In this document: positions 1-25,174 of the stretch, one piece after another
Position numbering within the stretch: position 1 is the stretch's first letter
Layout of the letters: each line of letters opens with the position of its first letter
DNA from: Candidatus Methanophagaceae archaeon
GTDB taxonomy: Archaea > Halobacteriota > Syntropharchaeia > Alkanophagales > Methanospirareceae
Assembly (NCBI GenBank): GCA_003194425.1
Contig: PQXB01000001.1
Span: 820,444 to 852,443, forward strand
Length of the DNA: 32,000 nucleotides
Direction: 5' to 3'
Notes under the pieces: generated by a model
The model's database searches: none
What the model was told of the DNA's origin: nothing
The model's input: the letters and a program-made list of their open reading frames with translations, nothing else
Translations under genes and position numbers: made by a program

Positions 1-1689
1 TGATATAATCTTCGTCTCGTGAATCAATTTTAGATTCTGATTTTGTTTTTTGGTTTGGAGAAATATGTCTAACTATAGATTCAAATAAGGATCCAAATGG
101 ATGCTTTCTATCTACTCTATATTTATAAAAAAATTTTTCTATTGTTTTACCTGTATTTTCTATTGGAACTTTACGGAAGTAACTATCTTTCTTGTTCAGA
201 TCGTAATTGAGTTTGGCGTTGAATTTCGTTGAATAGTCTATTGAAAGAGCATAATTAAAAAAATCATTTTCATAAAAAGGAGATAAGAAATATTCATTAT
301 AATTCCTACCAACATAGCAATGATCATTCATATAACCATATATTCGATTTTCTATGACATAACGCTCAAATTGTTTTATATTATCTGTTGAATCATATTT
401 TCCTTTAATTGTTTCATAATTATACTCAATTTCCCTCTTGATGTTGTTTACTATATTTAAAGGCCAATTAAGGCGATTTATCTTTGAGATGTAATAGTCG
501 CTTGGCTTAACCATAGATGAAAACGTTCTCAAAAGGAATAATGTAATTTCATTAGGTAGAAAGTTAGAACTAATTAGCTCCATCTTCCTAAAAATATTTT
601 TAGAGCCACCAATTAAAAAATCAAGTTTTGTAGCTGCCATAATTGTATCACCAACTGTACCTTCTGTGAAGATACTGGAGGGATCAAAAGATTTATGAAA
701 ATCAACTAAATGAAGGTCTCCTTGTAATCTTTTTGTTTCTTGTATATCTATAAGTTGCTCATATTTCTCGGTCAGTTTTTTGAAATTTTTCTCCTTTTGT
801 TTTTCTCGCCCTATGAGTTTTATTTCTACATTTGGATAATTTTTTTTGAGAGCATTGATTAGATGCCCCGCATGATCCTCAGTCGTGTGTGTATAAGTAG
901 TAACTTTTAAGCTTTTTCTTAATAAATGAGCTAATAAATAGCTTGAATCCGTTCCTCCAGAGAAGCATAGAGATATTTTATATCTTTTATTTACTGGATT
1001 AAGCACTTTATCAATTGCATTTAGAAATAAATCCTCAATGTCTTCAAGATACGTTTTGTAATCCACGATTTTATTATCGATGTGGGGTTTATAAAATTTG
1101 TGAGTAAGTTTGTTGTTTTTTGGATTAAATGTATATATTGATAAATTATCTAATTATAGATCGTTTTCCTATTAAGAGTATGTTCAAGACTTAATAATTC
1201 TGCAATTGCCTCTTTACTGAGACTTATATGATTTTCCTTGGCTACTGGGAAAATAAATTTTATGGCTGGTGCCACACAAAAAATATTTCTGGATCTGTGG
1301 TAGTAAAGATCAAAGAGCGTATGGTAAGGTGTTATTATCTGCACAAGTTTCGGAGTTTTAATTACAATATTACCAAAGAAAGGTATTGTCTCAACGAAAT
1401 TTATTCCGTATTTATTATATAATTTTCCTATAAATTTTGCGCCATCATTAATCTCTTTGTCTTTACCTAAAATATAATCATCAAAAAAGATATGTGTGTT
1501 TTCTATTTTTGCATATGGAGTTGGATAAACACCCCAATTGATTAAACCACATAATTCTTTTTTAGAATATTGTTCAAAAATTTGACATTTTGGTTTCCTT
1601 TTTAATACATCTTTTAGAACTTTTTTGATGTATGTTTCTATTTCTTCCGCGTTTACATTGTTATAATAAAAAAGGCCTATATTGCTCAT
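1..1689 (-). pseudogene. Asparagine synthetase-like amidotransferase (AsnB family), apparently frameshifted; C-terminus runs off the window
   Basis: ORF 1150..1719 has a likely start at ATG 1689, with GGTGA 5 nt upstream and an ATGA overlap with the upstream stop. It has the layout of a class-II glutamine amidotransferase domain but begins MSNIG instead of MCGI. A second minus-strand frame is open from 1153 to position 1; it is absent from the ORF track because it has no in-window stop. That frame reads ...NKRYKISLCFSGGTDSSYLLAHLL..., the SGGxDS PP-loop of the AsnB synthetase domain (around 964-947). The two frames meet at TAG 1150-1152. One extra T in TATAATT^AGATAAT would join ...RKTIYN to LDNLSIYTFNP. 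Confidence 0.7.
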
Positions 1690-3018
1690 TCTTTCACCTC
1701 TCTCTGTTGAATATACCACCTATAATAACTCCATCGAGTAATGGAACAAACTGCGCAGCTTATAAAACTTACCCACGCAGCACCCATTGCTCCATATGCC
1801 GGTACTAAAAGAATATTCCCCATCAGATTTGATATACCCATAATAAAACTTGTATTTCGTAACTCAGTGCCCCGGGTGTGGGCGCTTAAAAAATTATTAT
1901 GTGGTAAAGTCAACCCAGAAACTAACCCAGCCAATGCAAGAGGCAATATCAAAGGAACAGTCGGCAAAAAGTTTTCGGTAAATAGCAAAACCACGATAAA
2001 CTTTCCAAATATCACCAAACCAGCAACACAAGCCGCAAGCCATAGAAAATTATAGTAAATAACTTTTTTAGGTATCCTTTTCATATCAACAAATCCTTTA
2101 AATAAACTCCTAGATAAAGCTTGAGAAAGTCCCACCATTGGCGCCGTAATCATCGTCATTGCTAAAGAATAAAATCCCAATTGTGTTGTGTTAACAAAAT
2201 ATGTGATGAAGTGTTGTGTTAACAAAATATGTGATGAAAATTCTGTCTAACTGGTATGTAGACTGGTCTACAATCTGACCTAAATAGAGATGAAATCCAT
2301 ATTCCTTATTCTTTTTCCATATTTCCTTCAAATTTTCTCTTATATTATTGAACAGGGGATGGAACGAATGCATAACAACAAGAACGCTGACAATCGTGCT
2401 GAAGATGCTCAATAATATGAAATGGAAAGGTTCAATTTGGATGATTTTCAAAAGCATCAGTGCTCCTAAAAGGTAAACGGCTGTGGGAATCACACTGAAG
2501 AGAGACAGCCTCTCGATCTTGTTCATACCTCTCCCGACCTGCGGGACTAACATGCCAAATGGCAGAGCAATTAACAGAAAAGAAGAATATCTCAGAATCC
2601 AACCGACATTTGTATTAAAAATATCATCAACAAAAAAACTCAGGAACAGTATAAAAAATGAATAAGATATTCCAATCAAAAAAGCTACAATAACCGAAGC
2701 CCCAGCTAATTCTCTCTCTTTTCTTTCATCTTTTGCCTGCGCAATCAGCAACCCACTCGCACTGAAGAATCCAAAACGAAAGAATAAAACAGTAAAAGAA
2801 GTAATAGTAAAGAAAAATGCTAAAATTCCATATCCTTCCGGACCTAAAACCCTTGTATTAATAATGCCAGTAAAAACACCTAAAAATAAGGCGGCAATCT
2901 GAGAGAGAAATAAGGTAGAAGTTTGCCTTCCAGTTTTCCCCATTAAATCCTTTTTAAATTCATATACTATGCTTTTTGCGTTTACCATCCTGAACCCCAA
3001 ACCATTCTTTATTTTCAC
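1686..3018 (-). pseudogene. MOP/PST-family (Wzx-like) polysaccharide flippase, split by a 28-bp tandem duplication
   Basis: Two multi-TM fragments: 2191..3018 (275 aa) and 1686..2225 (179 aa). Fragment 1 ends ...RIFITYFVNTTLHHIFC*. Fragment 2 begins (TTG)LTQHFITYFVNTTQLGF. The shared FITYFVNTT comes from the duplication 2183-2210 = 2211-2238. The span is 1333 nt; minus 28 it is 1305 nt, or 435 codons in one frame. Start is GTG 3018 (GTGA overlap with the wecC stop) or ATG 2988. Confidence 0.85.
2183..2238. repeat. Perfect 2 x 28-bp tandem duplication (gtgttgtgttaacaaaatatgtgatgaa)
   Basis: Read directly from the sequence. Bases flanking each copy differ, so the repeat is exactly 56 nt. Confidence 0.98.
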
Positions 3019-4268
3019 TGGGACCTTCCATCTCCCAGCAGCTTCACATCAAATCCCGCCTTTCCCCATCTTCCCATATCTAAAATATTTCTACAATCAA
3101 CCACGTTCCGTCTTCTCATCAACCTGAATATCTCCTCCGGCTCAATCTCTTTAAATTCAGAATGATCAGTAATAATCACGATACAATCGCTACCCCCAAC
3201 CGCATCTTCCAAACTTAAAATTTCATATTCAAATGTTTTGACATAAGGGTCATATATCTTAACATTATATCCCTCATTATCAGCCACTTTTATGAACTTC
3301 AACGCAGGCGTCTCCCTCGTATCATCAACATTTCCCTTATATGCGACGCCAAAAACCGTAATCATTGGGTCTCTAACATCTTCTAACATCTCTCTTACAA
3401 TCTGCAGCACATAGTTCAGCATAGAATCGTTGATCTCTCTTGCCAGTGAAATCATCCTGCATTTGGTCGAATTCTCAGTTAAGAACCAAGGGTCAATCGC
3501 AATGCAGTGTCCTCCTACACCCGGACCTGGGTTGAGAATGTTTACCCGTGGGTGCTTGTTCGCTAATTCTATAGCCCCCCTTATATTTATCCCGCTCTCA
3601 TCTGCCATCTGTGCAAACTCGTTAGCTAAAGCAATGTTTGCATCTCTATAAGTATTCTCCATCAACTTTACAAATTCTGCTGTTCTTATGTCAGTTAAAT
3701 ACAACTTTCCCGTGACAAAAGACGAATACAAATCCCTTGCAAGTTCTCCGGATTTTTTATCAAATCCACCGATTATTCTGTCGTTGTGTATCATCTCGTA
3801 GACGGTGTTTCCAGGTATAGCCCTCTCAGGACAATGAACAAAATAAAATTCCCCTACTTTTAATCCTCTCCTCTCCAGTATAGGAATTACCAGTCTTTCA
3901 CTGGTACCTGGGGGGACCGTTGACTCAAGAATTACAAGATTCTCTTTATTCAGGTGAGGGTAAATCATCTCTGCTGCAGATCTTACATATTTCAAATCCG
4001 CAACTTTTACCGCCTTCTCCAGGGGCGTTGGAACTGCAATTAAAAATACATCCGCAGCCTCAACCTCTGTTTTAGCAACAACATTCTTTTTTGTTTTCTC
4101 AAATAAATCATCGATTTCCGGCTCATCAAATGGGCTTTCTCCTCTGTTTATCTTCTCCACAACTTTTTCACTTATGTCAACGCCAATCACTTCATACTGT
4201 TGAGCAAATAGTAACGCGGTTGGCAACCCAATGTAACCTAATCCAAGCACACAGATCTTCATCGTCAT
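3015..4268 (-). CDS. wecC: UDP-N-acetyl-D-mannosamine dehydrogenase (UDP-sugar 6-dehydrogenase family)
   Basis: 418 codons from ATG 4268. The N-terminus MTMKICVLGLGYIGLPTALLFA is a Rossmann GxGxxG. The segment ...ANKHPRVNILNPGPGVGGHCIAIDPWFL matches the catalytic-Cys block of WecC/Cap5O-type dehydrogenases. ATGA overlaps the wecB stop at 4265-4268. The 26-codon extension in the ORF track lies inside wecB and is rejected. Confidence 0.85.
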   Translation of the reverse strand: MTMKICVLGLGYIGLPTALLFAQQYEVIGVDISEKVVEKINRGESPFDEPEIDDLFEKTKKNVVAKTEVEAADVFLIAVPTPLEKAVKVADLKYVRSAAEMIYPHLNKENLVILESTVPPGTSERLVIPILERRGLKVGEFYFVHCPERAIPGNTVYEMIHNDRIIGGFDKKSGELARDLYSSFVTGKLYLTDIRTAEFVKLMENTYRDANIALANEFAQMADESGINIRGAIELANKHPRVNILNPGPGVGGHCIAIDPWFLTENSTKCRMISLAREINDSMLNYVLQIVREMLEDVRDPMITVFGVAYKGNVDDTRETPALKFIKVADNEGYNVKIYDPYVKTFEYEILSLEDAVGGSDCIVIITDHSEFKEIEPEEIFRLMRRRNVVDCRNILDMGRWGKAGFDVKLLGDGRSQ

Positions 4269-5372
4269 TGTTTCCCTCTTCCCCGCTCCTTTAAAATCTT
4301 GATTATCCGCCTCCCAGCTTCGCCGTCTCCAAAAGGATTTTTCCAATTCTTTTCTCTATTATTTATCATTAATTTAGCACATTCTAAAACTTCTTCAGGA
4401 TTTGTTCCAGCTAGGATATTCGCACCCACCTCAAGAGTTTCAGGTCTCTCTGTATTATCTCGCAAAGTAACACAAGGAACCTTCAATACGCAGGACTCTT
4501 CTTGAAGACCTCCGGAATCAGTTAAAACCAACCTTGCATTTGCCTCTAACTGTAGAAAATCCAGATAGCCTGCAGGCTTAACTAACCTTACCCCTTCTGG
4601 AATTTTTAGCCGAAACTCTTCTAACTTTTTCTCTGTTCTCGGATGAATCGGATAAATTATAACAAAGCCAAACTCTTTGTGCACTAAATCCAATCCCTTT
4701 AGAATCTGCCCTAACCTCTTTTTATCGTCTACGTTTTCTTGTCTGTGTGTAGTGACGAGTAAGAATTCCCTACTTTTTAAGTTCAATCGGTCTAAAATCC
4801 TTGATTTCTCTTTGCCTATTTCCAAATTCTGAAAGACCGCGTCTACTACTGTGTTCCCGGTAATGAAAATTTTGTTTGCGTCAATTCCTTCTTTTATTAG
4901 ATTCTCTCTCGACTTTTCAGTCGGTGCGAACAACAAATCCGAAACATGATCAGCTACAACTCTGTTTATTTCCTCTGGCATATTTCTGTCATAACTCCTT
5001 AAACCCGCCTCAATATGCCCCACTTTGATGTGCAACTTCACCGCCGCCAGAGCACCCGCCAATGTTGAGTTCGTGTCTCCGTAAACAAGAACAATCTCGG
5101 GCTTCTCTCTAACCAAAACTTTTTCAATCCGCTTCAGCCCCTCGCCTGTCTGGTAGCCGTGCGAGCCCGAGCCGACGCCGAGATAATAATCAGGCTTCGG
5201 AATCTTCAACCTTCGGAATCTTCAACTCCTCAAAGAATAGTTTTGAGAGGTTGTAGTCGTAGTGCTGCCCTGTGTGTAAGCAGACATTCTTTATTCTTCC
5301 GCTGCTCGCTTTTAAGACTGGTGCTAATTTTATGAACTGCGGTCTGTTTCCAGTTATATGCAGTATTTTCAT
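4265..5372 (-). pseudogene. wecB: UDP-N-acetylglucosamine 2-epimerase (non-hydrolysing), split by a 16-bp tandem duplication
   Basis: The N-terminal fragment 5190..5372 reads MKILHITGNRPQFIKLAPV...HTGQHYDYNLSKLFFEELKIPK. The C-terminal fragment 4265..5209 reads (TTG)KIPKPDYYLGVGSGSHGYQTGE.... Together they make a complete WecB. The span is 1108 nt; minus 16 it is 1092 nt, or 364 codons, reading ...FFEELKIPKPDYYLGVGSGSH.... Confidence 0.9.
5195..5226. repeat. Perfect 2 x 16-bp tandem duplication (cttcggaatcttcaac)
   Basis: Read directly: 5195-5210 = 5211-5226. Flanking bases differ. Confidence 0.98.
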
Positions 5373-5447
5373 TTTGTTACACCCTCACACACTTACTACA
5401 ATCCAACCCTTTTTCTCTTACATAATTCCAAAGAAAAATGATAACAT

Positions 5448-5636
5448 TCAGTACCTCTTCCTGTAAATCTCATCGTGATGTCCCAAATCGAGGAATCTAA
5501 CCATCTTACCTTCCTCTTCTATTTCAAAGACTAAAAAAAAGGACTTCTCCAAACGAACTCGCCTCAAACCCTTTAAATCATACCTTAACGGTTTGTAATG
5601 GTAGGGATTTTCTATTATCGCTTCTACACTCTTCAT
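5448..5636 (-). CDS. RelE/ParE-like toxin, unusually short (62 aa)
   Basis: The segment ...ENPYHYKPLRYDLKGLRRVRLEKSFFLVFEIEEEGKMVRFLDLGHHDEIY... matches the C-terminal two-thirds of RelE/ParE toxins (nP..g.pL.g.l.g..r.R.g.yR.iy.i.....v.i..i.hR...Y). The usual ~25-aa N-terminal strand and helix are missing. It sits directly downstream of a small acidic ORF. Confidence 0.6.
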   Translation of the reverse strand: MKSVEAIIENPYHYKPLRYDLKGLRRVRLEKSFFLVFEIEEEGKMVRFLDLGHHDEIYRKRY

Positions 5637-5638
5637 TA

Positions 5639-5878
5639 CTACATCGTAGAGTTTTTTAAATCTTCAATATTCGAGAATGTTTCGAAATCTCCTTCTTTCC
5701 TTATCTCCTCTAACTTCTCCAAATACTCCTCTTTTACCTCGTAGAACGCGTCGGTGTGCATTTCAACAAGTGTCTCAAGCATCCCCTCCAACCCTTCTAC
5801 TCTTCCCTTAAGGCTTTTCACATCTTCTAATACCTGCCTCATCATTCCCCTCTCTTCTAGTTCCATCATTTCAAACAC
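5639..5878 (-). CDS. Putative antitoxin partner (small acidic coiled-coil protein)
   Basis: 79-aa E/K-rich ORF ending 2 nt before the toxin ATG, with the junction ATG TAG TAA TGA. Its tail ...IRKEGDFETFSNIEDLKN resembles the ...FEAGRYYTLKTEKDIDKF tail of the antitoxin relic at 20621-20770. Start is GTG 5878 or ATG 5869. The function is inferred from position only. Confidence 0.45.
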   Translation of the reverse strand: MFEMMELEERGMMRQVLEDVKSLKGRVEGLEGMLETLVEMHTDAFYEVKEEYLEKLEEIRKEGDFETFSNIEDLKNSTM

Positions 5879-5901
5879 CTAATCTTATTTTGGCAGCCAC
5901 A

Positions 5902-5909
5902 TATTTAAA
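5902..5909 (-). promoter_or_regulatory. Candidate archaeal TATA box (TTTAAATA) for the RelE-like module
   Basis: On the minus strand: TTTAAATA, then 23 nt, then GTG 5878. TATA-to-start spacing fits a leaderless or very short-leader transcript. Motif-level call only. Confidence 0.3.
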
Positions 5910-5965
5910 GGATGCAAGAAAGGTAATGCCGACATCAAATGCGAATTTCTTGAGGGGTTGTATAA

Positions 5966-7180
5966 TTATCTCTTTTTATTCTTGTGTTCTCTGACAGCGC
6001 TCTCACACACCTCCGCAACTCTTCTCGCAACACTCTCCCAACTACGATTCTTTACCACATATTCTCTCCCCCTCCTTCCCATCTCTTCCCTCAACTTCTT
6101 ATCTTTCAGGAGTTTTATTATTGCTTCTGCTAATTCCTCGGGATTCTCCGGTTCAACTAATATTCCTGCGTTCTGCTCTTCTAAAATCTCAAATCCACTT
6201 ATTCTACTCGCGATCACAGGTTTTTTACAAGCCATATATTCACACAACTTTAAGGGGGAGTATCCAGATTTTAAAGGTTTTTTAGGAACAACACACACAT
6301 CACACGCATTAATATGTAGAGGGACTTTCTCATAAGGCACAGCACCAGTGAAGATAAACTTCTCGGAGACGCCAATTTGCTCACTAAGCTCTGTTAATTC
6401 TTTCCTTAAGGAACCATCACCAACCATCAAGAACCGGGTGTTAGGATAATTTCCCAATATATATGGAGCACTTCTTATAAAATAATCAATTCCCTGATAG
6501 GCAGCAAAAGTACCACTATAGCATATATAATAATAATTTTTTTCAAGATTTAGTTTCTTCCTTGCTTCTGTGATAGAGATTGGCTTAAACAACTCCGTGT
6601 TTGCTCCGTTTTGAATTTCTACCATCTTATCTTCAGGAATCCCATAATCTCTTTGGAGAGTCTCTTTCAGTCTTGATGTAACAACAATAATTTTATCGGC
6701 TCTTGGCAAAGTGAATCTCTCTATTTTGTCAATAATATGTAATGAGATGCCCTTTGCTCGCCCGGCAATTTCCATTTCGTCCACGACTATGCCATTCACT
6801 TCTTTGACCACAGGGATTTTAAAAAATTTAGCTAGGAAGTAGCCACTGTTAAATAAAGTGTGACGTATATAAGCCACATCAGGCATCGATTTCTGCCGCA
6901 TTATTACAACAAAACCAATAAGAAAAATACGAAGATGAGCCAAGAAATATAGAAGTAACCAGAATATTGGTGAAGTCTCCCCTAACCGCTCTAATATTGA
7001 TGACTTCGTCTCAACGACGATTTCCTCTTCAGATTCCGGACGATCGGTATTTAAGTATATTAAATTATGCCCTTCTTTAAGCAGCGATGTCAGCACTTCA
7101 TAAATATGAACGGATTCAGTTCCCAATCTCCTGGTTTTTAAAACACCATAATAAAAAATGTTCATTCTTTTCATCGCCAC
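5966..7180 (-). CDS. GT4-family (GT-B) glycosyltransferase
   Basis: 404 aa. The C-terminal lobe motif ...GYSPLKLCEYMACKKPVIASRISGFEILEEQNAGILVEP is an E(x7)E-type Glycos_transf_1 signature. Confidence 0.85.
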   Translation of the reverse strand: MAMKRMNIFYYGVLKTRRLGTESVHIYEVLTSLLKEGHNLIYLNTDRPESEEEIVVETKSSILERLGETSPIFWLLLYFLAHLRIFLIGFVVIMRQKSMPDVAYIRHTLFNSGYFLAKFFKIPVVKEVNGIVVDEMEIAGRAKGISLHIIDKIERFTLPRADKIIVVTSRLKETLQRDYGIPEDKMVEIQNGANTELFKPISITEARKKLNLEKNYYYICYSGTFAAYQGIDYFIRSAPYILGNYPNTRFLMVGDGSLRKELTELSEQIGVSEKFIFTGAVPYEKVPLHINACDVCVVPKKPLKSGYSPLKLCEYMACKKPVIASRISGFEILEEQNAGILVEPENPEELAEAIIKLLKDKKLREEMGRRGREYVVKNRSWESVARRVAEVCESAVREHKNKKR

Positions 7181-9450
7181 ACCTCCGAGCCACCGTTATC
7201 ATAAATCCTGCTTTTATCGGCAAATACATCCGAATAGTCCGTCAGATTACACTCCTTTGATTCACATAATACTTTCCCTTTTTTTATATTACGATACCCT
7301 AAATAGACATTGCCACCAATATTTTTATGCCCGCAGAACGAGTAAATGGCAATTTCTGGAATGAATGTAACTTCTTCATTATATAATCTCATCCCCCCCC
7401 AGCCATCTACATATATTTTTGGATTATCCCGGTTCATAAAATCTCTTAACCAGCTCGCACTGTAACTCTCCTGATCGTGAATGTACAATGTATTGTAATT
7501 ATCTCCATCAGTGCTTAAGGTTATCTCTCGTGGAATACCGAATATCGCAAACATTGCTCCCGTGACGCACAAGAATAGCGGTATCAGAACCAGTAATATA
7601 ATTAAATACACCCCCGGAGTCGCCAGAGTCTGTTCAGGTTTGTTGTGAGTTTGTTTAGACTTGTTATTTCGTAAGCGAGTTGAGCGAGTTAGAAAAAGTT
7701 GATATAATTTTCCTAAAGTTTCTTTCAGCATCAAACATCCTAAAACGAACACAACAGATAAAATCACCAACAGCATCGAGTATGTGCGCTTTATGTCATA
7801 CCCCTCTGAAACATAAGGAAGTGCAACCATAATCACAAGTATTCCAGTACACATCAATGTCAGCACTAAATGTTCAATTGAAAATTTTGTCTTTAAAAAA
7901 TCTGGTTTCAAATGCTCTTCTTCTCGCTCCGGAATCGCGATCATACTCTTATATTTCGTGAGCATACTGATAACTCCAGCACCTATGAGAAGGAATGAAA
8001 TCCATGTAACCACAAACTCTATTTTATAAGGAATAGCGGTCCTAATATTTTCGCCGTACAGAATACCCTCTCCAAGCATTGCCTGTGTTCTTTCGCATCT
8101 CGATTCAAAGAGAAAGAAGTTATGCAAGTTCTTAAAAGTTGCGTCTACGAACCCCACTCCTTCATTAAACGCTTCTTCTGTTACCTGCGAATACCAGAAG
8201 AAGACTATGCCAAAGAATAGCAGAACCAGCGTTAAACTTATGCTCTTCTTAATTGTGAACCGTTTTGACAATATCTCGATTAAGAACCAGCTAAAAAGCA
8301 TTATAAAGAAGAAGATATAGGTGGTTGCATAATGGGAGACGATGCACGACGCCATAAAGACGATGAATAAAATCCTCTTTCTCAGCGGATCTATCCCATC
8401 ACTTAAGAAGACTAACATCGCAAATCCAAAGAATAAAAACGCAGTATTTGTGCGCGGGCTGTATGCAGTATCTAAAAAAATATCTTGAGATATGAAGAAA
8501 AATGAAGCCAAAAACGCGTATAATTCTCCTACATATTTCTTTGATATTAAAAATACTATCAATGGTGCAACTGAAAGCAGTAATGAATAAAAAATTTTAT
8601 AAAAATATACGCTATTACTTACATTCAAAAAAGATTGGTATATTGAAGGTAATAATGAAATGGCTAAACATGCATCTAAAGTGGAATGTCCAAGAACATA
8701 CCAATGCAAATTACTAAATATCACTCTGAAAAAATGATATTCCTTATGTACATCCATCCCTAAGATATAATTCGATCTTAATGACAACAGTAGTAAAAGA
8801 GAGATGCTAATTAAAAATATTACAACAGGATAAAGTCTTTTTGGAAATTTGTGATTGAAAATGCAGACAAAAACGACATAAATTGGAATTAAAAATAACA
8901 AGAACACCAAAATTGAATTGTTTTTTGTAATATTCATCAAATGCATTCCAAATACGCTCAATCCTGGAAATAAGATTGGAACGATTAAAAATGCCTTCTC
9001 TGCTGCAGTTAAATGAATATTCTCTAACGTTACTACATTTTCACCGTTTATTTTATATCCAAGAATAGACAGCAAAATCAAGGCACTACTAAACGATACC
9101 ACCATCGAGACTGTTGAGAGTGGTGTTAAATAGCCAAGACTGTAATATAATTTATCTATGATTAGTCCGAAAAATGTTAGGAATGAAATACTGAGTCCTA
9201 CACTCAACACAACTTTTTCTAAAATTTCTATATTGTTTAATTTTAGAATAACAAGAATAAGTGCGCCGGGTAGTATGGTGAAACAGAGAAATCCGAAAAT
9301 CTGTCTCAAAAAAGGGATGTTTAAAAGTATTGTGATGTCTGTTAAGAGGATTATTGTTATTATAACTGCAAACCATTCTTTAGCTCCAAACTTCAATTTT
9401 ATTTTGTAATAAAAACCTTTTTTCATAGTTTTCCCTGTATCCAAAAACAT
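7171..9450 (-). CDS. 759-aa polytopic membrane protein; candidate glycan polymerase or GT-C-like enzyme (DUF2206-like from memory)
   Basis: Long intact ORF with a GGAGG RBS before ATG 9450. There are more than 15 hydrophobic segments over ~650 aa, then a ~110-aa soluble C-terminus. No WWDYG AglB motif is present. The functional call rests on context only. Confidence 0.6.
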   Translation of the reverse strand: MFLDTGKTMKKGFYYKIKLKFGAKEWFAVIITIILLTDITILLNIPFLRQIFGFLCFTILPGALILVILKLNNIEILEKVVLSVGLSISFLTFFGLIIDKLYYSLGYLTPLSTVSMVVSFSSALILLSILGYKINGENVVTLENIHLTAAEKAFLIVPILFPGLSVFGMHLMNITKNNSILVFLLFLIPIYVVFVCIFNHKFPKRLYPVVIFLISISLLLLLSLRSNYILGMDVHKEYHFFRVIFSNLHWYVLGHSTLDACLAISLLPSIYQSFLNVSNSVYFYKIFYSLLLSVAPLIVFLISKKYVGELYAFLASFFFISQDIFLDTAYSPRTNTAFLFFGFAMLVFLSDGIDPLRKRILFIVFMASCIVSHYATTYIFFFIMLFSWFLIEILSKRFTIKKSISLTLVLLFFGIVFFWYSQVTEEAFNEGVGFVDATFKNLHNFFLFESRCERTQAMLGEGILYGENIRTAIPYKIEFVVTWISFLLIGAGVISMLTKYKSMIAIPEREEEHLKPDFLKTKFSIEHLVLTLMCTGILVIMVALPYVSEGYDIKRTYSMLLVILSVVFVLGCLMLKETLGKLYQLFLTRSTRLRNNKSKQTHNKPEQTLATPGVYLIILLVLIPLFLCVTGAMFAIFGIPREITLSTDGDNYNTLYIHDQESYSASWLRDFMNRDNPKIYVDGWGGMRLYNEEVTFIPEIAIYSFCGHKNIGGNVYLGYRNIKKGKVLCESKECNLTDYSDVFADKSRIYDNGGSEVWR

Positions 9451-11915: not shown

Positions 11916-13039
11916 AGTGCCTCCTTCAAAGAGTCCACAACATACTTCGCCTGTTCCTCGGTCATCGTTGCAAACACCGGCAAGCAGACCTGCCTCTTGC
12001 AAACATCCTCAGCAACCGGAAACACCCCCTCTGTAAAACCATACAAATCCTTGAATATCGGCTGCAAGTGGCAGGGCAGTTCGTAAACCTCTCCGCTTAA
12101 ACCTACCTCATATTTCTCTTTAAGTTCTCTTTTAAGCTCCGCCCTCTCAATCTCAATGCCCTCGTCCAGCATAACCACATACTTGTAGTAGTTCGACTTC
12201 ACTTCAGGAGGGATTTTTATCGGCGTTACACCCCCTCCTCCCCTCTCATTCAGTTCTTCATCGTATATTTTTGCGATCTTTCTTCTATCCGCGATGAACG
12301 CCTCAAGCCGAGCAAACTGCGACAGACCTACCGCGGCGTGAATCTCACTCAGCCGCCAGTTGTAGCCCATCTCTGTATGCACATTGCCAAAGAATCCTGC
12401 TTTGCCCTGGTCTCTGAAGACTAACGCCCGCTCGTAAATCTTTTTGTCGTCTGTCGTGATCATTCCACCCTCGCCGGATGTCATCACTTTCGTTGGGTAA
12501 AAGGAGAACGCGGCTGCCTCTCCGAACCCTCCTGCCATTTTTCCGTCCAGCGTGCTCCCGTGTGCGTGCGCGGCATCCTCGATTAGAAAAAGATTGTGGT
12601 CTTCGCATATTTCCTGAATCTCTTTTATCTGCGGTGGCACGACGCCTCCAATATGCACAACGATAACACCTTTTGTATCTTTTTTTATATTCTCCTTAAC
12701 GCTCTCAGGGTCAATGCAAAGGTTCTCGGTAACATCCGAAAATATGACTTCTCCACCTGCGTGTACGACCGATGCAGGCGTCGCAAAGAAGGTGTTCGTT
12801 GGCACAATCACCGAATGCCCTTTCACATCTAACGCCCTCAAAGGTATTTCCAACGCACTCGTTCCGCTGTTCACCGCAACTGCATATTTCGTGCCCACAT
12901 ACGCTGCGAATCGCTCCTCAAATTCTCTCGTGTATTTCCCAAGCGTCAGTTGCCCGCTTTCGAGAATCTCGTCTACTTGCTTCAACAAATCCTTCCTTTC
13001 TTCCTCAGGAAAGTATATCTTCGCTGCTGGTATTTTCAT
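11909..13039 (-). CDS. DegT/DnrJ/EryC1/StrS-family PLP-dependent sugar aminotransferase
   Basis: MKIPAAKIYFPEEERKDLLKQVDEILESGQLTLGKYTREFEERFA...NSGTSALE...DAAHAHG...SFYPTKVMTSGEGG is the canonical family layout. Start ATG 13039 is preferred over ATG 13093, whose 18 extra codons are the 15-bp polypurine repeat. Confidence 0.9.
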   Translation of the reverse strand: MKIPAAKIYFPEEERKDLLKQVDEILESGQLTLGKYTREFEERFAAYVGTKYAVAVNSGTSALEIPLRALDVKGHSVIVPTNTFFATPASVVHAGGEVIFSDVTENLCIDPESVKENIKKDTKGVIVVHIGGVVPPQIKEIQEICEDHNLFLIEDAAHAHGSTLDGKMAGGFGEAAAFSFYPTKVMTSGEGGMITTDDKKIYERALVFRDQGKAGFFGNVHTEMGYNWRLSEIHAAVGLSQFARLEAFIADRRKIAKIYDEELNERGGGGVTPIKIPPEVKSNYYKYVVMLDEGIEIERAELKRELKEKYEVGLSGEVYELPCHLQPIFKDLYGFTEGVFPVAEDVCKRQVCLPVFATMTEEQAKYVVDSLKEALC

Positions 13040-13511
13040 TTTCTCTCCTCTCTCTTCCTCTCCTCTCTCTTTCTCTACTCTCTCTTTCGCCATTCTCCAA
13101 CTCTAAAACCGCCGCTATTTCTTCTATAAAATCATAAAAGTCTTGAAGGTTCTCTTTTAATATCTCAAATCCAAGTTCATCATCTATTTTCCCATATCTG
13201 TGCACGACTATGTTTCTAAAGCCTTTCATCAGCCTGATCTTCTCTTTTATTTCCTCACTCAAAATATTGTTCTTAACCAGATTCTCTACGATCTCTTCAT
13301 CGTCACCTGGAATTCCAAGTTCAAGGTCTGTGTTAATGACGGCACAAATATCAAAAACATCTTCGATTGCAAATTCTGTCCTCTTGTAGATTCCGTCTTT
13401 TAACAATCCCATCTCTGAGAATTCCTCAAAAGTTTCTGGCAAATGCTCCTCTACCAACCCAACACACTCCTCTATTTCTTTTATCTTTGTTCTGATAACC
13501 GCCCTCCTCAT
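13005..13511 (-). CDS. HEPN-domain (DUF86) toxin of an MNT-HEPN pair
   Basis: The Rx4H motif is present in ...MKGFRNIVVHRYGKID. ATGA overlaps the MNT stop at 13508-13511. The C-terminal tail (...ENGERESRERERRGRERRENENTSSEDILS) reads through the polypurine repeat and overlaps the aminotransferase start, so it is probably not native. Confidence 0.85.
   Translation of the reverse strand: MRRAVIRTKIKEIEECVGLVEEHLPETFEEFSEMGLLKDGIYKRTEFAIEDVFDICAVINTDLELGIPGDDEEIVENLVKNNILSEEIKEKIRLMKGFRNIVVHRYGKIDDELGFEILKENLQDFYDFIEEIAAVLELENGERESRERERRGRERRENENTSSEDILS
13016..13083. repeat. Direct repeat copy A (68 bp) flanking the MNT-HEPN cassette
   Basis: tatcttcgctgctggtattttcattttctctcctctctcttcctctcctctctct... 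is identical to copy B for the first 55 nt. It contains the ATG and first 8 codons (MKIPAAKI) plus 15-bp pyrimidine-strand units. Confidence 0.95.
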
Positions 13512-13924
13512 TTTATCGCCTTTTCCCTGATATAATCGTAAAATCTGTATTTAAACGCTTCAAAATCCTTTATCGTCTCGGTAGCCGTTTCATATAAAAA
13601 CCGCTTATCCTCGCAGTAAATTTCTCTTCCCTTCAAGACCTCAACTCTTACATAAAGAGGGAGTTGCTGAAAAATCTGAATATCATAAACATCATCGAAG
13701 AGTTCTGAAAGGAGTTTTAACCTGAATCTTGAGGACTCCTTTTGTCCTCCCTCATAATATATGCAGAAGTCAATATCTGAGCCCTCAACCATCTGCCCCC
13801 TTGCTGCTGAGCCATACAAGAAGATGAATTTCACCTTCTCAAATCCCGCTACATTCTTTATTCTTTGCAGCATAATCTTACTATCTTTTTCAAGGTGGCG
13901 TATCTTCGCTGCTGGTATTTTCAT
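13508..13924 (-). CDS. Minimal nucleotidyltransferase (MNT) antitoxin of an MNT-HEPN pair
   Basis: ...FIFLYGSAARGQMVEGSDIDFCIY is the GSx10-12[DE]xD pol-beta NTase motif. The first 8 codons, MKIPAAKI, are identical to the aminotransferase start and are part of a duplicated segment. The native start may be the internal MLQRIKN (13873). Confidence 0.85.
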   Translation of the reverse strand: MKIPAAKIRHLEKDSKIMLQRIKNVAGFEKVKFIFLYGSAARGQMVEGSDIDFCIYYEGGQKESSRFRLKLLSELFDDVYDIQIFQQLPLYVRVEVLKGREIYCEDKRFLYETATETIKDFEAFKYRFYDYIREKAIK

Positions 13925-13983
13925 TTTCTCTCCTCTCTCTTCCTCTCCTCTCTCTTCCTCTCCTCTCTCTTTCTCTATTCTCT
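13901..13983. repeat. Direct repeat copy B (83 bp; one extra 15-bp unit)
   Basis: Same sequence as copy A plus an extra tcctctcctctctct unit, then 13 nt with 1 mismatch. It contains the stop codon of the upstream methyltransferase (13975-13977). Confidence 0.95.
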
Positions 13984-14676
13984 AACCTTTTCCGCTTCGA
14001 CATAATACAAATGACACCTCTTCGTCGCATAAGTATCTAACAACTTATTAACCTCCCTTGCAAACCAAACAGGAATAAACTTCCCTTTAAAACCCCTGAA
14101 TAAACTAATTGGCGTGACCAGCCCTACTCCTCGCCTGTAAACCGCCCGAAATCCCGCCTCTTCTACGAGGTGCTCGAATTGTTCGGGCGTGTAATCGAAG
14201 ATGAAATCATTTTGCCAGCCTCTAAGTTTTACATAAGTACTATGAAGAGAATTTCTATTTGACATATTAATCAAAATTAATGGAGATACCTTAACTATTT
14301 TTGATAAGAAGTTCACTAATTCCGTTTCATTAAGTAAAGGGGCAAACTCAATGCAGGTAACTAAGTCGAACGTTTCGTCCAAATCAACATTGCGAACATC
14401 CTCTGCTATAACCTTAACACTGGGAAACTTTATTTTTAACTCGGTAACGAACTCTTCGTTAAACTCTACTGCCGTAACATCGTAGCCCTTCTCCAGAAGA
14501 TAAGAGACGATTCTGCCGTGTCCAGAGCCGATGTCCAACGCCTTCTTTCCTTCGCCCGGCGGTATTCTCTCTTTAACCAGTTCGTTCAAACTCTCAAAGA
14601 CCACATTCCTGATGTCCTTCGGATTCTCCCACCACTCAGAGTAATATTTCTTTATCTCTTTCGCTTCAACATCCAT
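13975..14676 (-). CDS. Class I SAM-dependent methyltransferase
   Basis: Motif I is KKALDIGSGHGRIVSYLLEKGYDVTAVEF. 233 aa and intact. Confidence 0.85.
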   Translation of the reverse strand: MDVEAKEIKKYYSEWWENPKDIRNVVFESLNELVKERIPPGEGKKALDIGSGHGRIVSYLLEKGYDVTAVEFNEEFVTELKIKFPSVKVIAEDVRNVDLDETFDLVTCIEFAPLLNETELVNFLSKIVKVSPLILINMSNRNSLHSTYVKLRGWQNDFIFDYTPEQFEHLVEEAGFRAVYRRGVGLVTPISLFRGFKGKFIPVWFAREVNKLLDTYATKRCHLYYVEAEKVRE

Positions 14677-20508: not shown

Positions 20509-20770
20509 CTAGTTCTTCTTTGGCTCATCCTCTGTAAACCCCTTTCCTGTGTTTTTAATCTTTTCATTTGGTTTAATCTTTTCATTTGGCTCTTGAACTT
20601 TTCAGATAGCTCTATTTAAGTCATTCTTCCTCTAGATCGCTAAAGAATTTATCAATATCTTTCTCTGTTTTGAGTGTGTAATATCGCCCTGCCTCAAAAT
20701 CCCTCTCGCTCTCCTCGATACCACTCATCAAATCTTCATCACTCAAAATCTCAAGCTTTGTCCTATTTAT
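20509..20770 (-). pseudogene. Relic of a RelB/RelE-type TA module between two GT genes
   Basis: 20770-20621 reads INRTKLEILSDEDLMSGIEESERDFEAGRYYTLKTEKDIDKFFSDLEEE*, an antitoxin-like C-terminus with no proper start. An overlapping ATG then reads M-T-TAA-IELSEKFKSQMKRL..., a RelE-like N-terminus with a stop at codon 3. It is truncated by the next GT start. Confidence 0.45.
20554..20589. repeat. Perfect 2 x 18-bp tandem duplication (tttaatcttttcatttgg)
   Basis: Read directly: 20554-20571 = 20572-20589. It lies inside the toxin relic, producing SQMKRL/NQMKRL. Confidence 0.97.
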
Positions 20771-21955
20771 TTAAATATTCAAAACCTTCTCATAAACCTT
20801 CTCCGTCTCTTCTGCAATCCGCTCCCACGAATAATCTTCAACTTTCTTCCTGCCATTTCTCCCCATCCTTCTTCTTACTTCCTCGTTCTCCAATAAATAA
20901 ATTATCGCTTCTGCCAACGCTTCCTCGTCCTTTGGCGGAACTAACACACCATTCTCTCCATTTTTTACCACATCAGGAACACCGCCAATCTTAGACGCCA
21001 CAATCGGGACGCTACAAGCCATCGCCTCTAAATTCACGATTCCAAAGATTTCATGTTTCATCACCGAAGGCAAACAGAAAACATCTGCCGAGTTGTAATA
21101 AAACGGTTTCAAACGCTCCTCGACAAATCCTGCAAATTTTACATATTTTCCAAGACCTAACTTTCTCGACAATGCCTCAAGTTCTTCTTTCATTCTACCA
21201 CTTCCAACGAAGACTAATTTAGTATTTGGAATGTTTTTTATTATTTTTGGCATCGCTTTCAACAAAACATCAGGTCCCTTGTGCGGGCTGAGTGTTCCAA
21301 CAAATAATATAATCCTGCTGTCAATAGGCAAATCTAACTTCTCCCTGCATTCTTCTTTTGAATAATGAAGGTCAAAATCCTCTATATTTATCCCGTTTGG
21401 AATTACAACAATCTTATCTCTGTATTTCCCTAAAAACTGTGATTCATTGATGTAATATTCTGAAGGCGAGATTATGACATCTGCATAAGATAAAATTTTG
21501 TCAAGAAGAAATTTGTTGTAAAAATAAACGCTAATTCTTCGAGCAAAACCACCCATATTTTCTTCTAAGTCCCCATGATATGTAACCACAAGCGGAAGTT
21601 TCTTCTTTTTTGCACATCTTAGCCCTGCAATGTCTCCTATAGGAACAGAAATATGAGTATGGATGAGGTCAGTAGGATATTTTACAGAATTTTTTAGAAG
21701 TCCAAATGAAAATCTTCCGCTTGCAACGCTGAGATTGGTTCCGTATCTGTATATTTTTATATTTTTGTGTTCTTCAATTTCATCTTTAGAATCGGCGGAT
21801 GTAGTAAAAATCGATATTTCGTGTCCTTCGTGTCCTTTTTCTGCTAAATAAGATGCTAAATTCTCTGCAGCAGCTTCGGCACCACGAACAGTATATTTTT
21901 CATCAACTATTTTGCTTCTGTAGGGAAAATGAGTGATAAAATAATTTATTTTCAT
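20771..21955 (-). CDS. GT4-family glycosyltransferase
   Basis: 394 aa. ...CLPSVMKHEIFGIVNLEAMACSVPIVASKIGGVPDVVKNGENGVLVPP. Confidence 0.85.
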   Translation of the reverse strand: MKINYFITHFPYRSKIVDEKYTVRGAEAAAENLASYLAEKGHEGHEISIFTTSADSKDEIEEHKNIKIYRYGTNLSVASGRFSFGLLKNSVKYPTDLIHTHISVPIGDIAGLRCAKKKKLPLVVTYHGDLEENMGGFARRISVYFYNKFLLDKILSYADVIISPSEYYINESQFLGKYRDKIVVIPNGINIEDFDLHYSKEECREKLDLPIDSRIILFVGTLSPHKGPDVLLKAMPKIIKNIPNTKLVFVGSGRMKEELEALSRKLGLGKYVKFAGFVEERLKPFYYNSADVFCLPSVMKHEIFGIVNLEAMACSVPIVASKIGGVPDVVKNGENGVLVPPKDEEALAEAIIYLLENEEVRRRMGRNGRKKVEDYSWERIAEETEKVYEKVLNI

Positions 21956-22377
21956 ATTCCCTCTTCATAAACTTTTTCAACCAAACAAACTATCTTTCCC
22001 CAATCATACCATTTTGCGCTTTCAATACATTTCCTTTTCATTTCTCTTTTCCTATTCAATGTTACCAATATTCCTTTCCTAATTTCTTTTTCTGAAAGCT
22101 CACATACAATCCCATTCTCATTTCTTATAAAATCACATACTGCATTCCTTTTATGATTCACTGTAACAACCGGCAATCCACATGCATTCGCCTCTAACGC
22201 AACAATCCCAAATCCTTCTCTTGTCGAAGGCAGGATAAATATCTCAGATGACTTCATATATGAGATCACATCATCATAATCTTCTAAAAAGCCTACAAAC
22301 TTAATGTTATCCTCTAATCTCAAATCATAAACAGCACCAGAAAGAAGTTTTATCAACTTCACCGTTCCATCCCTCAC
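21952..22377 (-). pseudogene. 5'-truncated GT4 glycosyltransferase (C-terminal ~140 aa only)
   Basis: ...FILPSTREGFGIVALEANACGLPVVTV... is the C-lobe of a GT4 enzyme. The frame is closed by a stop at 22384-22386 and opens only with GTG 22377. The ~220-aa N-terminal lobe is absent. It still has an ATGA overlap with the downstream GT4 gene. Confidence 0.7.
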
Positions 22378-22408
22378 AAATAGTTACAGCATTAGCATTT
22401 TTCCTATA

Positions 22409-23503: not shown

Positions 23504-23565
23504 TGTTTCTTTTTTTAAATAACTTTTTCACCCTTTTATTTGAGTACCTTTTTTGCTCGTTGAAT

Positions 23566-24328
23566 TTAAAAGTGCGTTGACAATCCCCTTTTTTGACATA
23601 CTTCTAGCACATCTGGATGGAACTCCTGAGCCTGAAACAGGAATGTCCCTCGAACATAGCCAGCCAACCAGCCCCAAAAACATCGTCCAAATGGACCCAT
23701 TTTTTTCAGCCACCGTCCTAACCAAAAACTTGGCGAATCAAAATTAGAGCGAGCCGCCTTCTGAATAGTCCCTCGAAGGTGCCCTATGTATCGGAAACCA
23801 TTTAACTCGAATGTTTTGATCCAAACTGCTCTGCTGTGGTCATTAATGTGTTCGACATCAATCTGTATCCTCAATGTGCGCCACCACCATCTTGCTTCGA
23901 AAGGGGGGGTGGGCGTCATAATAAACGCAATTCCTCCGGGCTTCAAAACTCTATACGTCTCTGAAATTAGTTTGCCAGGCCTCTGCAAATGTTGTAATAT
24001 TTGTTGTGCTATTACTAAATCAAATTGTTTTTCACTAAAGGGAAGAGGTTCAAAATCAATATCTACCTGACTAAGGTATCCTCTAACTGATTCTCTGGCA
24101 TGGAGAAGGGCATTTTTGGAAATATCAACACCATAAGCTTCGATATTCGATGATCTAAGCGCATGAACAAGCTCTCCGGTATTACAAGCCAATATCCAAT
24201 GCTGTACCTACTGGGAATCTTTGAACCAAATCTCTTGCTATCAAGTTAAAGAAAGGATTGTCTTTTTGCACAGGACTGAATGTTCCTTCCTTTTCGAAAA
24301 GGCCTTTGAGCGGATTCGTTTCTGGCAT
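23566..24328 (-). pseudogene. Class I SAM-dependent methyltransferase with a +1 frameshift inside motif I
   Basis: AGGAG, then 7 nt, then ATG 24328 opens MPETNPLKGLFEKEGTF...FPVGTALDIGL*. The track ORF 23566..24192 continues (TTG)ACNTGELVHAL...VLKPGGIAFI. The span is 763 nt = 3n+1. Removing one T at 24186-24187 gives ALDIGCNTGEL, a canonical motif I. Confidence 0.8.
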
Positions 24329-25025: not shown

Positions 25026-25174
25026 ATTATTCTTCGGATTCAATACTTGGACGTGGCAACATAAAGTTAATCCGCTTTGCAGGTATTTGAAACATGAAGG
25101 CTATATTGAAAAGAACGTTCAAATCTAACATCTCTCCCACTGTTCCAGGATTCTTTGCTCCTCCCTTCTTCTTT

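What the first reader, a model, noticed from the sequence alone, without database searches (positions are those of the whole stretch)
5195..5226. Perfect 16-bp tandem duplication is the only lesion splitting wecB
cttcggaatcttcaac is present twice (5195-5210 and 5211-5226). It breaks the epimerase exactly at the conserved ...ELKIPKPDYYLGVGSGSH... block. The N-terminal fragment ends ELKIPKVEDSEA* and the C-terminal fragment restarts at (L)KIPKPDYY. Removing one copy restores 364 codons with the canonical motif. This is the second independent, non-microsatellite, frame-breaking tandem duplication within 3 kb of the same operon.
Basis: seen in the sequence. Interest (0 to 1): 0.8.

Follow-up and report, generated by a model that had tools for sequence, protein, structure and literature searches.

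The report
Frameshifting 16-bp duplication in decaying wecB
A real, recent 16-base tandem duplication knocks out a sugar-epimerase gene in a methane-oxidising archaeon (ANME-1), but it is one of many gene-breaking mutations in a fast-changing surface-sugar gene island, and nothing indicates a programmed on/off switch.

Summary
CTTCGGAATCTTCAAC occurs twice, perfectly, at 5195-5226. It splits a minus-strand UDP-GlcNAc 2-epimerase gene into 60-aa and 314-aa ORFs. Removing one copy restores 364 codons with a full-length wecB/Epimerase_2 match. An independent Logan assembly of run SRR6664617 reproduces it exactly. Seven related contigs (94-99% identical in this gene segment) lack it, so it is real, derived and young.

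The switch reading is not supported.
- The restored ORF is a hybrid. Relatives carry two tandem paralogues, E1 and E2 (48% aa identity). The window gene is E1 codons 1 to about 119 joined to E2 through an 11-bp shared stretch (5001-5011).
- The same 4.6 kb also holds a 28-bp duplication in the flippase, a 13-bp deletion in an AsnB-like gene and an 87-bp deletion truncating ParE. Three more genes are broken further along the island.
- Other strains inactivate the same genes by unrelated deletions.
- No un-duplicated copy of the hybrid gene was found among about 15 billion proteins.

Best reading: a spontaneous blunt tandem duplication that abolishes function, in a low-GC, mosaic glycan island of an ANME-1 MAG that is under relaxed or diversifying selection. 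Small blunt tandem duplications (14, 16, 18 and 28 bp) look unusually frequent in this lineage.

The parts
5195..5210 (.). Copy 1 of the 16-bp tandem duplication (CTTCGGAATCTTCAAC; GTTGAAGATTCCGAAG on the coding strand)
   Evidence: TRF, string check. Absent from L002, L083, L084, L085, L086, L087 and L089.
5211..5226 (.). Copy 2 of the 16-bp tandem duplication, identical to copy 1. Blunt junctions with 0 nt of microhomology.
5190..5372 (-). wecB N-terminal fragment: 60 aa, of which 54 are native residues (derived from paralogue E1) followed by VEDSEA and a stop
   Evidence: Called as a 60-aa gene in Logan contig L001. Clusters with intact 359-aa E1 proteins.
4265..5209 (-). wecB C-terminal fragment: 314 aa from a TTG inside copy 2. 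Residues up to about 119 of the restored protein come from E1, the rest from E2.
   Evidence: P0001 is 100% identical and found only in Logan. Pfam Epimerase_2.
5001..5011 (.). Crossover point of the E1/E2 paralogue fusion. This 11-bp stretch (GAGGCGGGTTT on the coding strand) is shared by both paralogues. About 1.4 kb present in relatives is missing here.
   Evidence: Three-way alignment A1, BLAST coordinates, position located.
3015..4268 (-). Nucleotide-sugar dehydrogenase, wecC-like. Intact (417 aa; NCBI aa as PXF51941). Its start overlaps the wecB stop.
   Evidence: Pfam, NCBIfam TIGR03026 at 439.6 bits.
2183..2238 (.). Perfect 28-bp x2 tandem duplication that frameshifts the Polysacc_synt flippase. 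Also blunt.
   Evidence: Absent in L094 and in the intact 424-aa relative P0160.
1686..3018 (-). Flippase (Wzx-like, Polysacc_synt) split into a 275-aa fragment (2191-3018) and a 155-179-aa fragment (1686-2225). Collapsing the duplication gives a 434-aa ORF.
   Evidence: NCBI annotates two hypothetical proteins, PXF51574 and PXF51573.
1..1719 (-). Asparagine-synthase-like gene (612 aa in relatives) split into 179-aa (1150-1719) and 400-aa (runs off the window start to 1066) fragments by a 13-bp deletion at about 1152
   Evidence: Cluster membership, alignment A2 with L088, weak match to TIGR01536.
5448..5878 (-). Antitoxin plus truncated ParE-like toxin (62 aa against 92 aa in relatives). An 87-bp deletion has its junction within 5645-5665.
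   Evidence: The deletion is shared with L087.

Best explanation
The feature is a recent, spontaneous, blunt-ended tandem duplication of 16 bp inside a UDP-GlcNAc 2-epimerase (wecB-type) gene. The gene sits in a low-GC surface-glycan island of an uncultured ANME-1 archaeon, annotated as 'Candidatus Methanophagaceae archaeon', locus tags C4B55_041xx.

Shown: the extra 16 nt shift the reading frame after codon 54, and translation stops six codons later. The 60-aa product lacks most of the fold. The 314-aa downstream ORF lacks the N-terminal beta-alpha-beta unit with the GNRPQFIK nucleotide-binding loop. From this I infer that neither piece can be an active epimerase and that the allele is loss-of-function.

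The gene had already been remodelled. It is a fusion of two tandem paralogues, E1 and E2, created by a deletion of about 1.4 kb through 11 bp of shared sequence. The order of the fusion and the duplication is unknown.

The duplication is one of at least four structural lesions in 4.6 kb of the same gene run, or five counting the in-frame paralogue fusion. The broken genes are the AsnB-like gene, the flippase, wecB and ParE. At least three more broken genes lie further along the island.

I therefore read it as ordinary mutational inactivation in a gene module that this lineage no longer needs or is selected to lose. I do not read it as a dedicated switch. In principle, precise loss of one copy could restore the hybrid ORF, as for any tandem duplication. 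That would not restore the pathway, because neighbouring lesions are deletions.
For: The duplication is real and not an assembly product. Logan contig SRR6664617_92 equals window 1-9262 at 100% identity, with both duplications, and was seen in 2 samples. A second Logan contig equals window 22284-28710.

It is derived and young. All seven related contigs covering the site lack it. The two copies are identical.

Collapsing it restores a full-length wecB.

The gene is a hybrid. The order ParE-E1-E2-wecC is seen in L002, L083, L087 and L089. E1 and E2 are 48% identical. Alignment A1 shows the switch from E1 to E2.

Neighbouring lesions are documented: the 28-bp duplication, the 13-bp deletion and the 87-bp deletion. 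Further along, a glycosyltransferase is 141 aa against 372 aa, a methyltransferase is 48+208 aa against 253 aa, and a kinase-like gene is frameshifted.

Other strains lose the same genes independently. L087 has a 190-bp deletion removing the E1 start. L084 and L086 have deletions removing most of E1, all of E2 and most of wecC. L094 has an 11-bp deletion in the flippase.

No un-duplicated hybrid allele was found.

The island is 29-42% GC, against 56% in the flanking RNase P genes.
Against: Two perfect, blunt, frame-breaking tandem duplications in two genes of one pathway within 3 kb is far above chance. It is also above the density in 1.15 Mb of comparable loci from other taxa. Tandem duplications are intrinsically revertible. 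The E2-derived part shows no extra stop codons or decay, so the gene was probably functional until recently. Whether the E1/E2 hybrid was ever active is unknown.
Confidence: 0.78

Rival explanations
1. Reversible, phase-variation-like switch. Tandem duplications arise and are precisely excised at high frequency in glycan genes, toggling surface-glycan synthesis, as in pneumococcal capsule phase variation.
For: The duplication is perfect, lies inside an ORF of a glycan gene and restores a canonical ORF when collapsed. A second such event sits in the flippase. A third blunt 14-bp duplication occurs at the 3' end of E2 in relatives. The density of such duplications is elevated. The precedent is cited in PMC4243769.
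Against: No ON allele of the hybrid gene was found anywhere. The operon also carries irreversible deletions and an irreversible paralogue fusion. Other strains use deletions, not duplications, to lose the same genes. The 14-bp and 18-bp duplications are each shared, in identical form, by contigs from two different samples. That argues against rapid reversion. There is no repeat tract or other hypermutable motif.
Confidence: 0.08
2. Adaptive loss. The loss-of-function alleles, including this duplication, were positively selected, either to escape a virus or other agent that recognises the glycan or to save cost in a long-term enrichment culture. They are not neutral decay.
For: Independent inactivations of E1, E2, wecC and the flippase recur in several metagenomes, with two alleles within one metagenome, Ga0116200. 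The lesions cluster in one pathway. The island is mosaic, with a 6.3-kb cassette present in the window and absent in L093.
Against: There is no direct evidence of selection. The substitution counts are too few for dN/dS. Toxin-antitoxin and unrelated genes in the island are broken too, which fits general relaxed constraint.
Confidence: 0.12
3. Sequencing or assembly artefact.
For: The source is a metagenome-assembled genome. I could not inspect reads.
Against: An independent assembler (Logan) gives a 100% identical 9.5-kb contig, seen in two samples. A 16-bp x2 repeat is only 32 bp long, far shorter than the 250-nt reads of the likely source study (that link is unverified), so single reads would span it. 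The 11-bp fusion junction is also too short to be an assembly collapse.
Confidence: 0.02

Closest known systems
Non-hydrolysing UDP-GlcNAc 2-epimerase (WecB/MnaA; TIGR00236, PF02350), for example Methanocaldococcus jannaschii 4NEQ
   Same: The collapsed ORF aligns end to end: 422.5 bits to TIGR00236, and E = 3e-129 to 4NEQ. It keeps the GDTN, H-x-EAGLR, MPEE-NR and HR-EN motifs. It is followed by a translationally overlapping wecC-like dehydrogenase.
   Different: As it stands the gene is frameshifted into 60-aa and 314-aa pieces. The restored protein is a hybrid of two paralogues that are 48% identical, so it is not a native enzyme.
Pneumococcal capsule phase variation by spontaneous tandem duplications (cap3A, cap8E, tts; Waite et al. 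2001 and 2003, as cited in PMC4243769)
   Same: A perfect, non-microsatellite tandem duplication inside an ORF of a surface-polysaccharide gene causes a frameshift. More than one such duplication occurs in the locus. Precise excision would restore the ORF.
   Different: No revertant or ON allele was observed. Irreversible deletions accompany the duplication in the same operon. The organism is an uncultured archaeon and no phenotype is accessible.
Hypervariable glycan ('metagenomic') islands and pseudogene formation in surface-polysaccharide loci. The comparison with E. coli K-12 rfb and lab-strain eps lesions rests on my own knowledge.
   Same: The region is a low-GC, mosaic island full of glycosyltransferases. 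It shows strain-specific gene content, embedded toxin-antitoxin pairs and multiple strain-private inactivating lesions.
   Different: Here a notable share of the lesions are blunt 14-28-bp tandem duplications, not insertion-sequence insertions or homopolymer slips.
Spontaneous tandem duplications in archaeal mutation spectra (Sulfolobus acidocaldarius pyrE assays; PMC7785828)
   Same: Tandem duplications and deletions ('large indels') are a regular class of spontaneous mutation in archaea, about 10-15% of events in that study's table.
   Different: That is a crenarchaeal laboratory system. No mutation-spectrum data exist for ANME-1, and the absence of terminal microhomology here is unexplained.
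Chimeric genes formed by unequal recombination or deletion between tandem paralogues
   Same: An in-frame fusion of two adjacent paralogues with loss of the intervening segment.
   Different: The crossover uses only 11 bp of identity. That fits microhomology-mediated deletion or slippage better than homologous recombination.

Membership tests
UDP-GlcNAc 2-epimerase, non-hydrolysing (WecB; TIGR00236 / PF02350) | Full-length match above the curated cut-off | tested here: met
   Collapsed ORF: TIGR00236 at 422.5 bits (cut-off 210.15), profile positions 1-364 of 366. PF02350 at 398.9 bits. 4NEQ at E = 3e-129.
UDP-GlcNAc 2-epimerase, non-hydrolysing (WecB; TIGR00236 / PF02350) | Conserved catalytic and substrate-binding motifs (GDTN Asp, H-x-E-AGLR Glu, MPEE Glu, HR-EN His, N-terminal G-x-RP loop) | tested here: met
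   All are present in the collapsed translation and aligned to 4NEQ. The assignment of catalytic roles comes from my knowledge of E. coli WecB.
UDP-GlcNAc 2-epimerase, non-hydrolysing (WecB; TIGR00236 / PF02350) | Uninterrupted ORF encoding the whole two-domain fold | tested here: not met
   The frameshift after codon 54 leaves 60-aa and 314-aa ORFs. It is a pseudogene of this family, not a functional member.
UDP-GlcNAc 2-epimerase, non-hydrolysing (WecB; TIGR00236 / PF02350) | Enzymatic activity of the restored hybrid | not testable with these tools
   The E1/E2 chimera joins at residue about 119, inside the N-terminal domain. Activity needs a biochemical assay.
Phase-variable contingency locus | Hypermutable element (simple-sequence repeat tract, invertible segment or methylation site) at the switch point | tested here: not met
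   The unit is a complex 16-mer present twice. There is no tract and no inverted repeats typical of invertases. Flanking DNA hairpins are only weak (z = -2.9).
Phase-variable contingency locus | ON and OFF alleles of the same gene coexisting in a strain or population | tested here: not met
   The collapsed hybrid protein is absent from the 15-billion-sequence collection. The JGI scan found only un-duplicated E1 in non-hybrid contexts.
Pneumococcal-type tandem-duplication phase variation | Perfect tandem duplication inside a glycan-gene ORF that causes a frameshift | tested here: met
Pneumococcal-type tandem-duplication phase variation | Precise excision that restores the phenotype at high frequency | not testable with these tools
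   This needs culture or deep amplicon data. The 13-bp and 87-bp deletions and the paralogue fusion in the same gene run argue that excision alone could not restore the pathway (inference).

The most novel reading that the evidence does not exclude
ANME-1 archaea have a distinctive mutational process that generates blunt, microhomology-free tandem duplications of about 14-28 bp at unusually high rate. In their glycan islands these act as revertible loss-of-function alleles. Together with deletions, they would give population-level, phase-variation-like diversification of the cell surface, for example against the large ANME-1 virome.
Probability: 0.1. Interest if true: 0.55.

Novelty: new member of a known kind. 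Interest (0 to 1): 0.27.

Why it matters
For annotation, the two ORFs and the neighbouring fragments should be labelled as pseudogene pieces of a hybrid wecB, not as hypothetical proteins.

For biology, the locus gives a compact view of how a surface-glycan island in an uncultured, slow-growing methane oxidiser turns over. The events seen are paralogue fusion, cassette insertion, deletions and small blunt tandem duplications, with the same genes lost independently in different strains. If the excess of blunt tandem duplications holds genome-wide, it would point to a particular replication or repair property of ANME-1. None of this is a new kind of system.

Tried and rejected
- The genome-contig scan with the collapsed protein gave no hit above 61% identity, so neither the source genome nor close relatives came from that collection.
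- A literature search for SRR6664617, C4B55 and SAMN06288063 found nothing relevant.
- The link to the G37 ANME-1a enrichment genome of PMC5947290 is only an inference. That genome is 1.40 Mb in 5 scaffolds at 52% GC. The window comes from a 1.19-Mb contig, and its non-island genes are 56% GC.
- I suspected a second wecC copy (PXF51941) that might compensate for the loss. It turned out to be the window's own wecC with a start two codons later.
- Synonymous versus non-synonymous counts between the window and relatives were too few to show decay: 1 synonymous and 4-5 non-synonymous in the E2 part. At residue 236 the window keeps the canonical Pro.
- DNA folding of the ancestral site showed only modest hairpins next to the duplicated segment (z = -2.9). 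The 28-bp site gave z = -1.9. I did not build a mechanism on this.
- A transposon-footprint origin (target-site duplication left after excision) was rejected. The two duplications differ in length (16 and 28 bp) and both are longer than typical target-site duplications. This rests on my own knowledge.
- Functional complementation by the two protein fragments was rejected as implausible, because the split removes the first beta-alpha-beta unit.
- No Rfam family or tRNA occurs in the window.

Full report
**1. The observation**

Tandem Repeats Finder lists 5195-5226 as a period-16, 2.0-copy, 100%-match repeat. Both halves read CTTCGGAATCTTCAAC. The affected gene is on the minus strand.

- ORF 5190-5372 gives MKILHITGNRPQFIKL...FFEELKIPKVEDSEA* (60 aa).
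- ORF 4265-5209 starts at a TTG inside the second copy and reads (L)KIPKPDYYLGVGSGSH... (314 aa).

Removing one copy yields a 1092-nt ORF, 363 aa plus stop. It matches Pfam Epimerase_2 over profile positions 8-347 of 347 (398.9 bits). It matches the NCBIfam wecB equivalog at 422.5 bits against a cut-off of 210. It aligns end to end with the M. jannaschii UDP-GlcNAc 2-epimerase 4NEQ (E = 3e-129).

Collapsing it restores a 434-aa Polysacc_synt flippase.

Perfect tandem duplications of period 12-60 are expected 0.01 times per simulated 32-kb sequence, and six are present. Neither the 16-bp nor the 28-bp unit can be shifted by a single base, so both junctions are blunt, with no terminal microhomology.

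**2. It is not an artefact, and it is young**

The 314-aa fragment exists in the protein collection only as a Logan-derived protein. Its contig, SRR6664617_92 (9529 bp, found in two samples), is 100% identical to window 1-9262, including both duplications. A second Logan contig equals window 22284-28710.

A scan of JGI metagenomes that would accept either allele found four contigs, all un-duplicated. In total, seven related contigs cover the site and lack the extra 16 bp: L002, L083, L084, L085, L086, L087 and L089. They are 94-99% identical to the window in this gene segment. The duplication is therefore derived and private to this genome.

**3. Organism and setting**

Exact look-ups place the window's proteins in 'MAG: Candidatus Methanophagaceae archaeon' (ANME-1), locus tags C4B55_04150 onward, on a 1,187,124-bp contig. 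NCBI annotates the gene fragments as separate hypothetical proteins.

Window 1 to about 29,700 is one long minus-strand run of glycan genes. It contains glycosyltransferases, methyltransferases, a DegT aminotransferase, NAD-dependent epimerases, DUF2206, a radical-SAM enzyme, a flippase, wecC and wecB. Toxin-antitoxin pairs are embedded in it. Its GC content is 29-42%, against 56% in the flanking RNase P subunit genes. It is a low-GC glycan island.

The source may be the G37 ANME-1a enrichment genome of PMC5947290, which is 1.40 Mb in 5 scaffolds at 52% GC and comes from more than 4 years of cultivation. I could not verify that link.

**4. The interrupted gene is itself a hybrid**

In relatives the local order is antitoxin-ParE-E1-E2-wecC, with two full-length wecB-type genes: E1 of 359 aa and E2 of 360 or 364 aa. 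This is seen in L002, L083, L087 and L089. E1 and E2 are 48% identical, and both pass the wecB equivalog.

A three-way alignment shows that the window gene follows E1 almost perfectly for its first 357 nt or so. Within the shared 11-mer GAGGCGGGTTT (window 5001-5011) it switches to E2. About 1.4 kb is therefore missing: the 3' two-thirds of E1, the spacer and the 5' third of E2.

So 'the only lesion' is true for the reading frame only. What collapse restores is an E1(1 to about 119)-E2 chimera of unknown activity. Neither the chimera nor the collapsed flippase exists anywhere in the 15-billion-protein collection.

**5. The neighbourhood is full of other lesions**

Within 4.6 kb of the same gene run:
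- A 13-bp deletion splits an asparagine-synthase-like gene (612 aa in relatives) into 179-aa and 400-aa pieces.
- The 28-bp duplication splits the flippase.
- The E1/E2 fusion.
- The 16-bp duplication.
- An 87-bp deletion removes the ParE start, leaving 62 aa against 92 aa.

Further along the island:
- A GT1 glycosyltransferase is reduced to 141 aa against 372 aa in relatives, because a 6.3-kb cassette (22333-28672) sits where its 5' part should be.
- A methyltransferase carries a +1 T frameshift at about 24185, giving 48+208 aa against 253 aa.
- A thymidylate-kinase-like gene appears frameshifted at about 24517. I inferred this from the reading frames. No intact orthologue was retrieved for it.

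The single-base frameshifts are reproduced in the Logan assembly.

**6. The same genes are lost differently in other strains**

- L087 and the 310-aa proteins P0141 and P0145 carry a 190-bp deletion that removes the ParE 3' end and the E1 start.
- L084 and L086, from two different metagenomes, have deletions that remove most of E1, all of E2 and most of wecC.
- L094 lacks the 28-bp duplication but has its own 11-bp deletion in the flippase.
- L093 carries a 101-aa Epimerase_2 remnant in yet another arrangement.
- Two different alleles coexist in one metagenome, Ga0116200 (L086 and L087).

This is recurrent, heterogeneous and mostly irreversible loss. It is not repeated use of one switch site.

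**7. Mechanism**

Shown: the 16 extra bases shift the frame after codon 54 and create a stop six codons later. The downstream ORF lacks the N-terminal GNRPQFIK loop and the first beta-alpha-beta unit.

Inferred: neither piece is active, so UDP-ManNAc (or the related 2-epimer) is not made from this locus. The flippase and the AsnB-like gene are also broken, so this branch of glycan synthesis is off in this strain.

The origin of the duplication is a spontaneous replication or repair error. Tandem duplications are a regular class in archaeal mutation spectra (PMC7785828). The blunt junctions are not what simple slippage between short repeats would produce, and I could not establish the exact mechanism. 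Modest hairpins flank the site. Fill-in of closely spaced opposed nicks is a speculative alternative.

**8. Switch or decay**

Tandem duplications can revert, and pneumococcal capsule genes are a documented case of such reversible inactivation (cited in PMC4243769). Several things count against that reading here:
- No ON allele of the hybrid gene was found.
- The companion lesions are irreversible.
- Loss alleles in other strains are heterogeneous.
- Two other blunt duplications in this population are each shared, in identical form, by contigs from two different samples. The 14-bp TTTTAAAGGAGCGG x2 at the E2 3' end occurs in both L089 and L091. E2 proteins of the matching 360-aa length are recorded in five contigs, although I confirmed the duplication itself only in L089 and L091. 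The 18-bp repeat at 20554-20589 is shared with L093.

I put the switch reading at about 0.08. Whether the losses are neutral or selected is open.

**9. What remains slightly unusual**

The window has 6 perfect tandem duplications of period 12-60 in 32 kb. Three of them are exact two-copy events of 16 bp or more. The baseline is 17 in 1.15 Mb of wecB neighbourhoods from 80 other genomes, where only one exact two-copy event of 16 bp or more occurs. This test is post hoc and small, but it hints at a lineage-specific tendency to make small blunt duplications.

**10. Verdict**

The loss-of-function mechanism is confirmed. The 'only lesion' claim and the implied switch are not supported. The feature is an ordinary, if neatly documented, pseudogenising mutation in a decaying, mosaic glycan island of ANME-1.

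Noticed in passing
window 4987-5011 (crossover 5001-5011), compared with L002 4030-6526: The window's wecB is an in-frame fusion of two tandem paralogues, E1 and E2 (48% aa identity). They are separate genes in relatives L002, L083, L087 and L089. The crossover lies in only 11 bp of shared sequence.
   Followed up: yes
L089 3019-3046 and L091 1455-1482 (corresponds to window about 4282): A third blunt, perfect tandem duplication (14 bp, TTTTAAAGGAGCGG x2) sits at the 3' end of E2 in both loci. It probably explains the 360-aa E2 variants recorded in five contigs and separates the wecB stop from the wecC start. It appears stably inherited.
   Followed up: partly
window 20554-20604: A perfect 18-bp x2 repeat with a partial third copy lies in the spacer between two GT1 genes. 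It sits inside what looks like a degraded RelE/ParE-type toxin N-terminus (…ELSEKFKSQMKRLNQMKRLK…) after a short antitoxin-like ORF. L093 shares it without gaps.
   Followed up: partly
window 22333-28672: This 6.3-kb cassette is absent from relative L093, where an intact 372-aa GT1 gene occupies the site. It holds an NTP_transf_5 protein, the broken methyltransferase, the broken kinase-like gene, a GT1, a radical-SAM enzyme and a GT2. In the window only the last 141 codons of the 372-aa GT1 gene remain (21952-22377).
   Followed up: partly
window 24178-24190 and 24511-24527: There are single-base frameshifts in a SAM methyltransferase (+1 T inside the ALDIGCG motif I) and apparently in a thymidylate-kinase-like gene (-1 near a G run, inferred from reading frames). 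Both are reproduced in an independent Logan contig. An intact 253-aa methyltransferase exists in relatives.
   Followed up: partly
window 13040-13097 and 13927-13984: Two similar CT-rich 15-bp arrays (about 3.3 copies each) lie about 890 bp apart and bracket a HepT/MNT toxin-antitoxin pair (13005-13924). They may mark the borders of an inserted TA cassette or repeated ribosome-binding or promoter regions.
   Followed up: no
window 30541-30596 (inside ORF 30190-30945, + strand): A perfect 18-bp x3.1 in-frame repeat encodes GRGKGKGRGKGKGRGKGKG. It is inserted in the archaeal RNase P p30 subunit gene, just outside the glycan island.
   Followed up: no
window 30116-30191: A 15-bp x5.3 AT-rich array (TAATCTAAAGTAATG) lies at the boundary between the low-GC island and the 56%-GC housekeeping genes, immediately upstream of the RNase P p30 gene.
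   Followed up: no
L093 5662-7771: Another strain has a different arrangement after the 585-aa kinase/NTP-transferase gene: a 435-aa sugar dehydrogenase, then a 101-aa Epimerase_2 remnant, then a 75-aa and a 62-aa ORF of unknown family. This is yet another broken wecB copy in the population.
   Followed up: no
window 1-32000 compared with loci L003-L082: Perfect tandem duplications (period 12-60) are about 13-fold denser in the window (6 in 32 kb) than in 1.15 Mb of wecB neighbourhoods from 80 unrelated genomes (17). This may be a lineage-specific mutational bias. The comparison is post hoc.
   Followed up: partly
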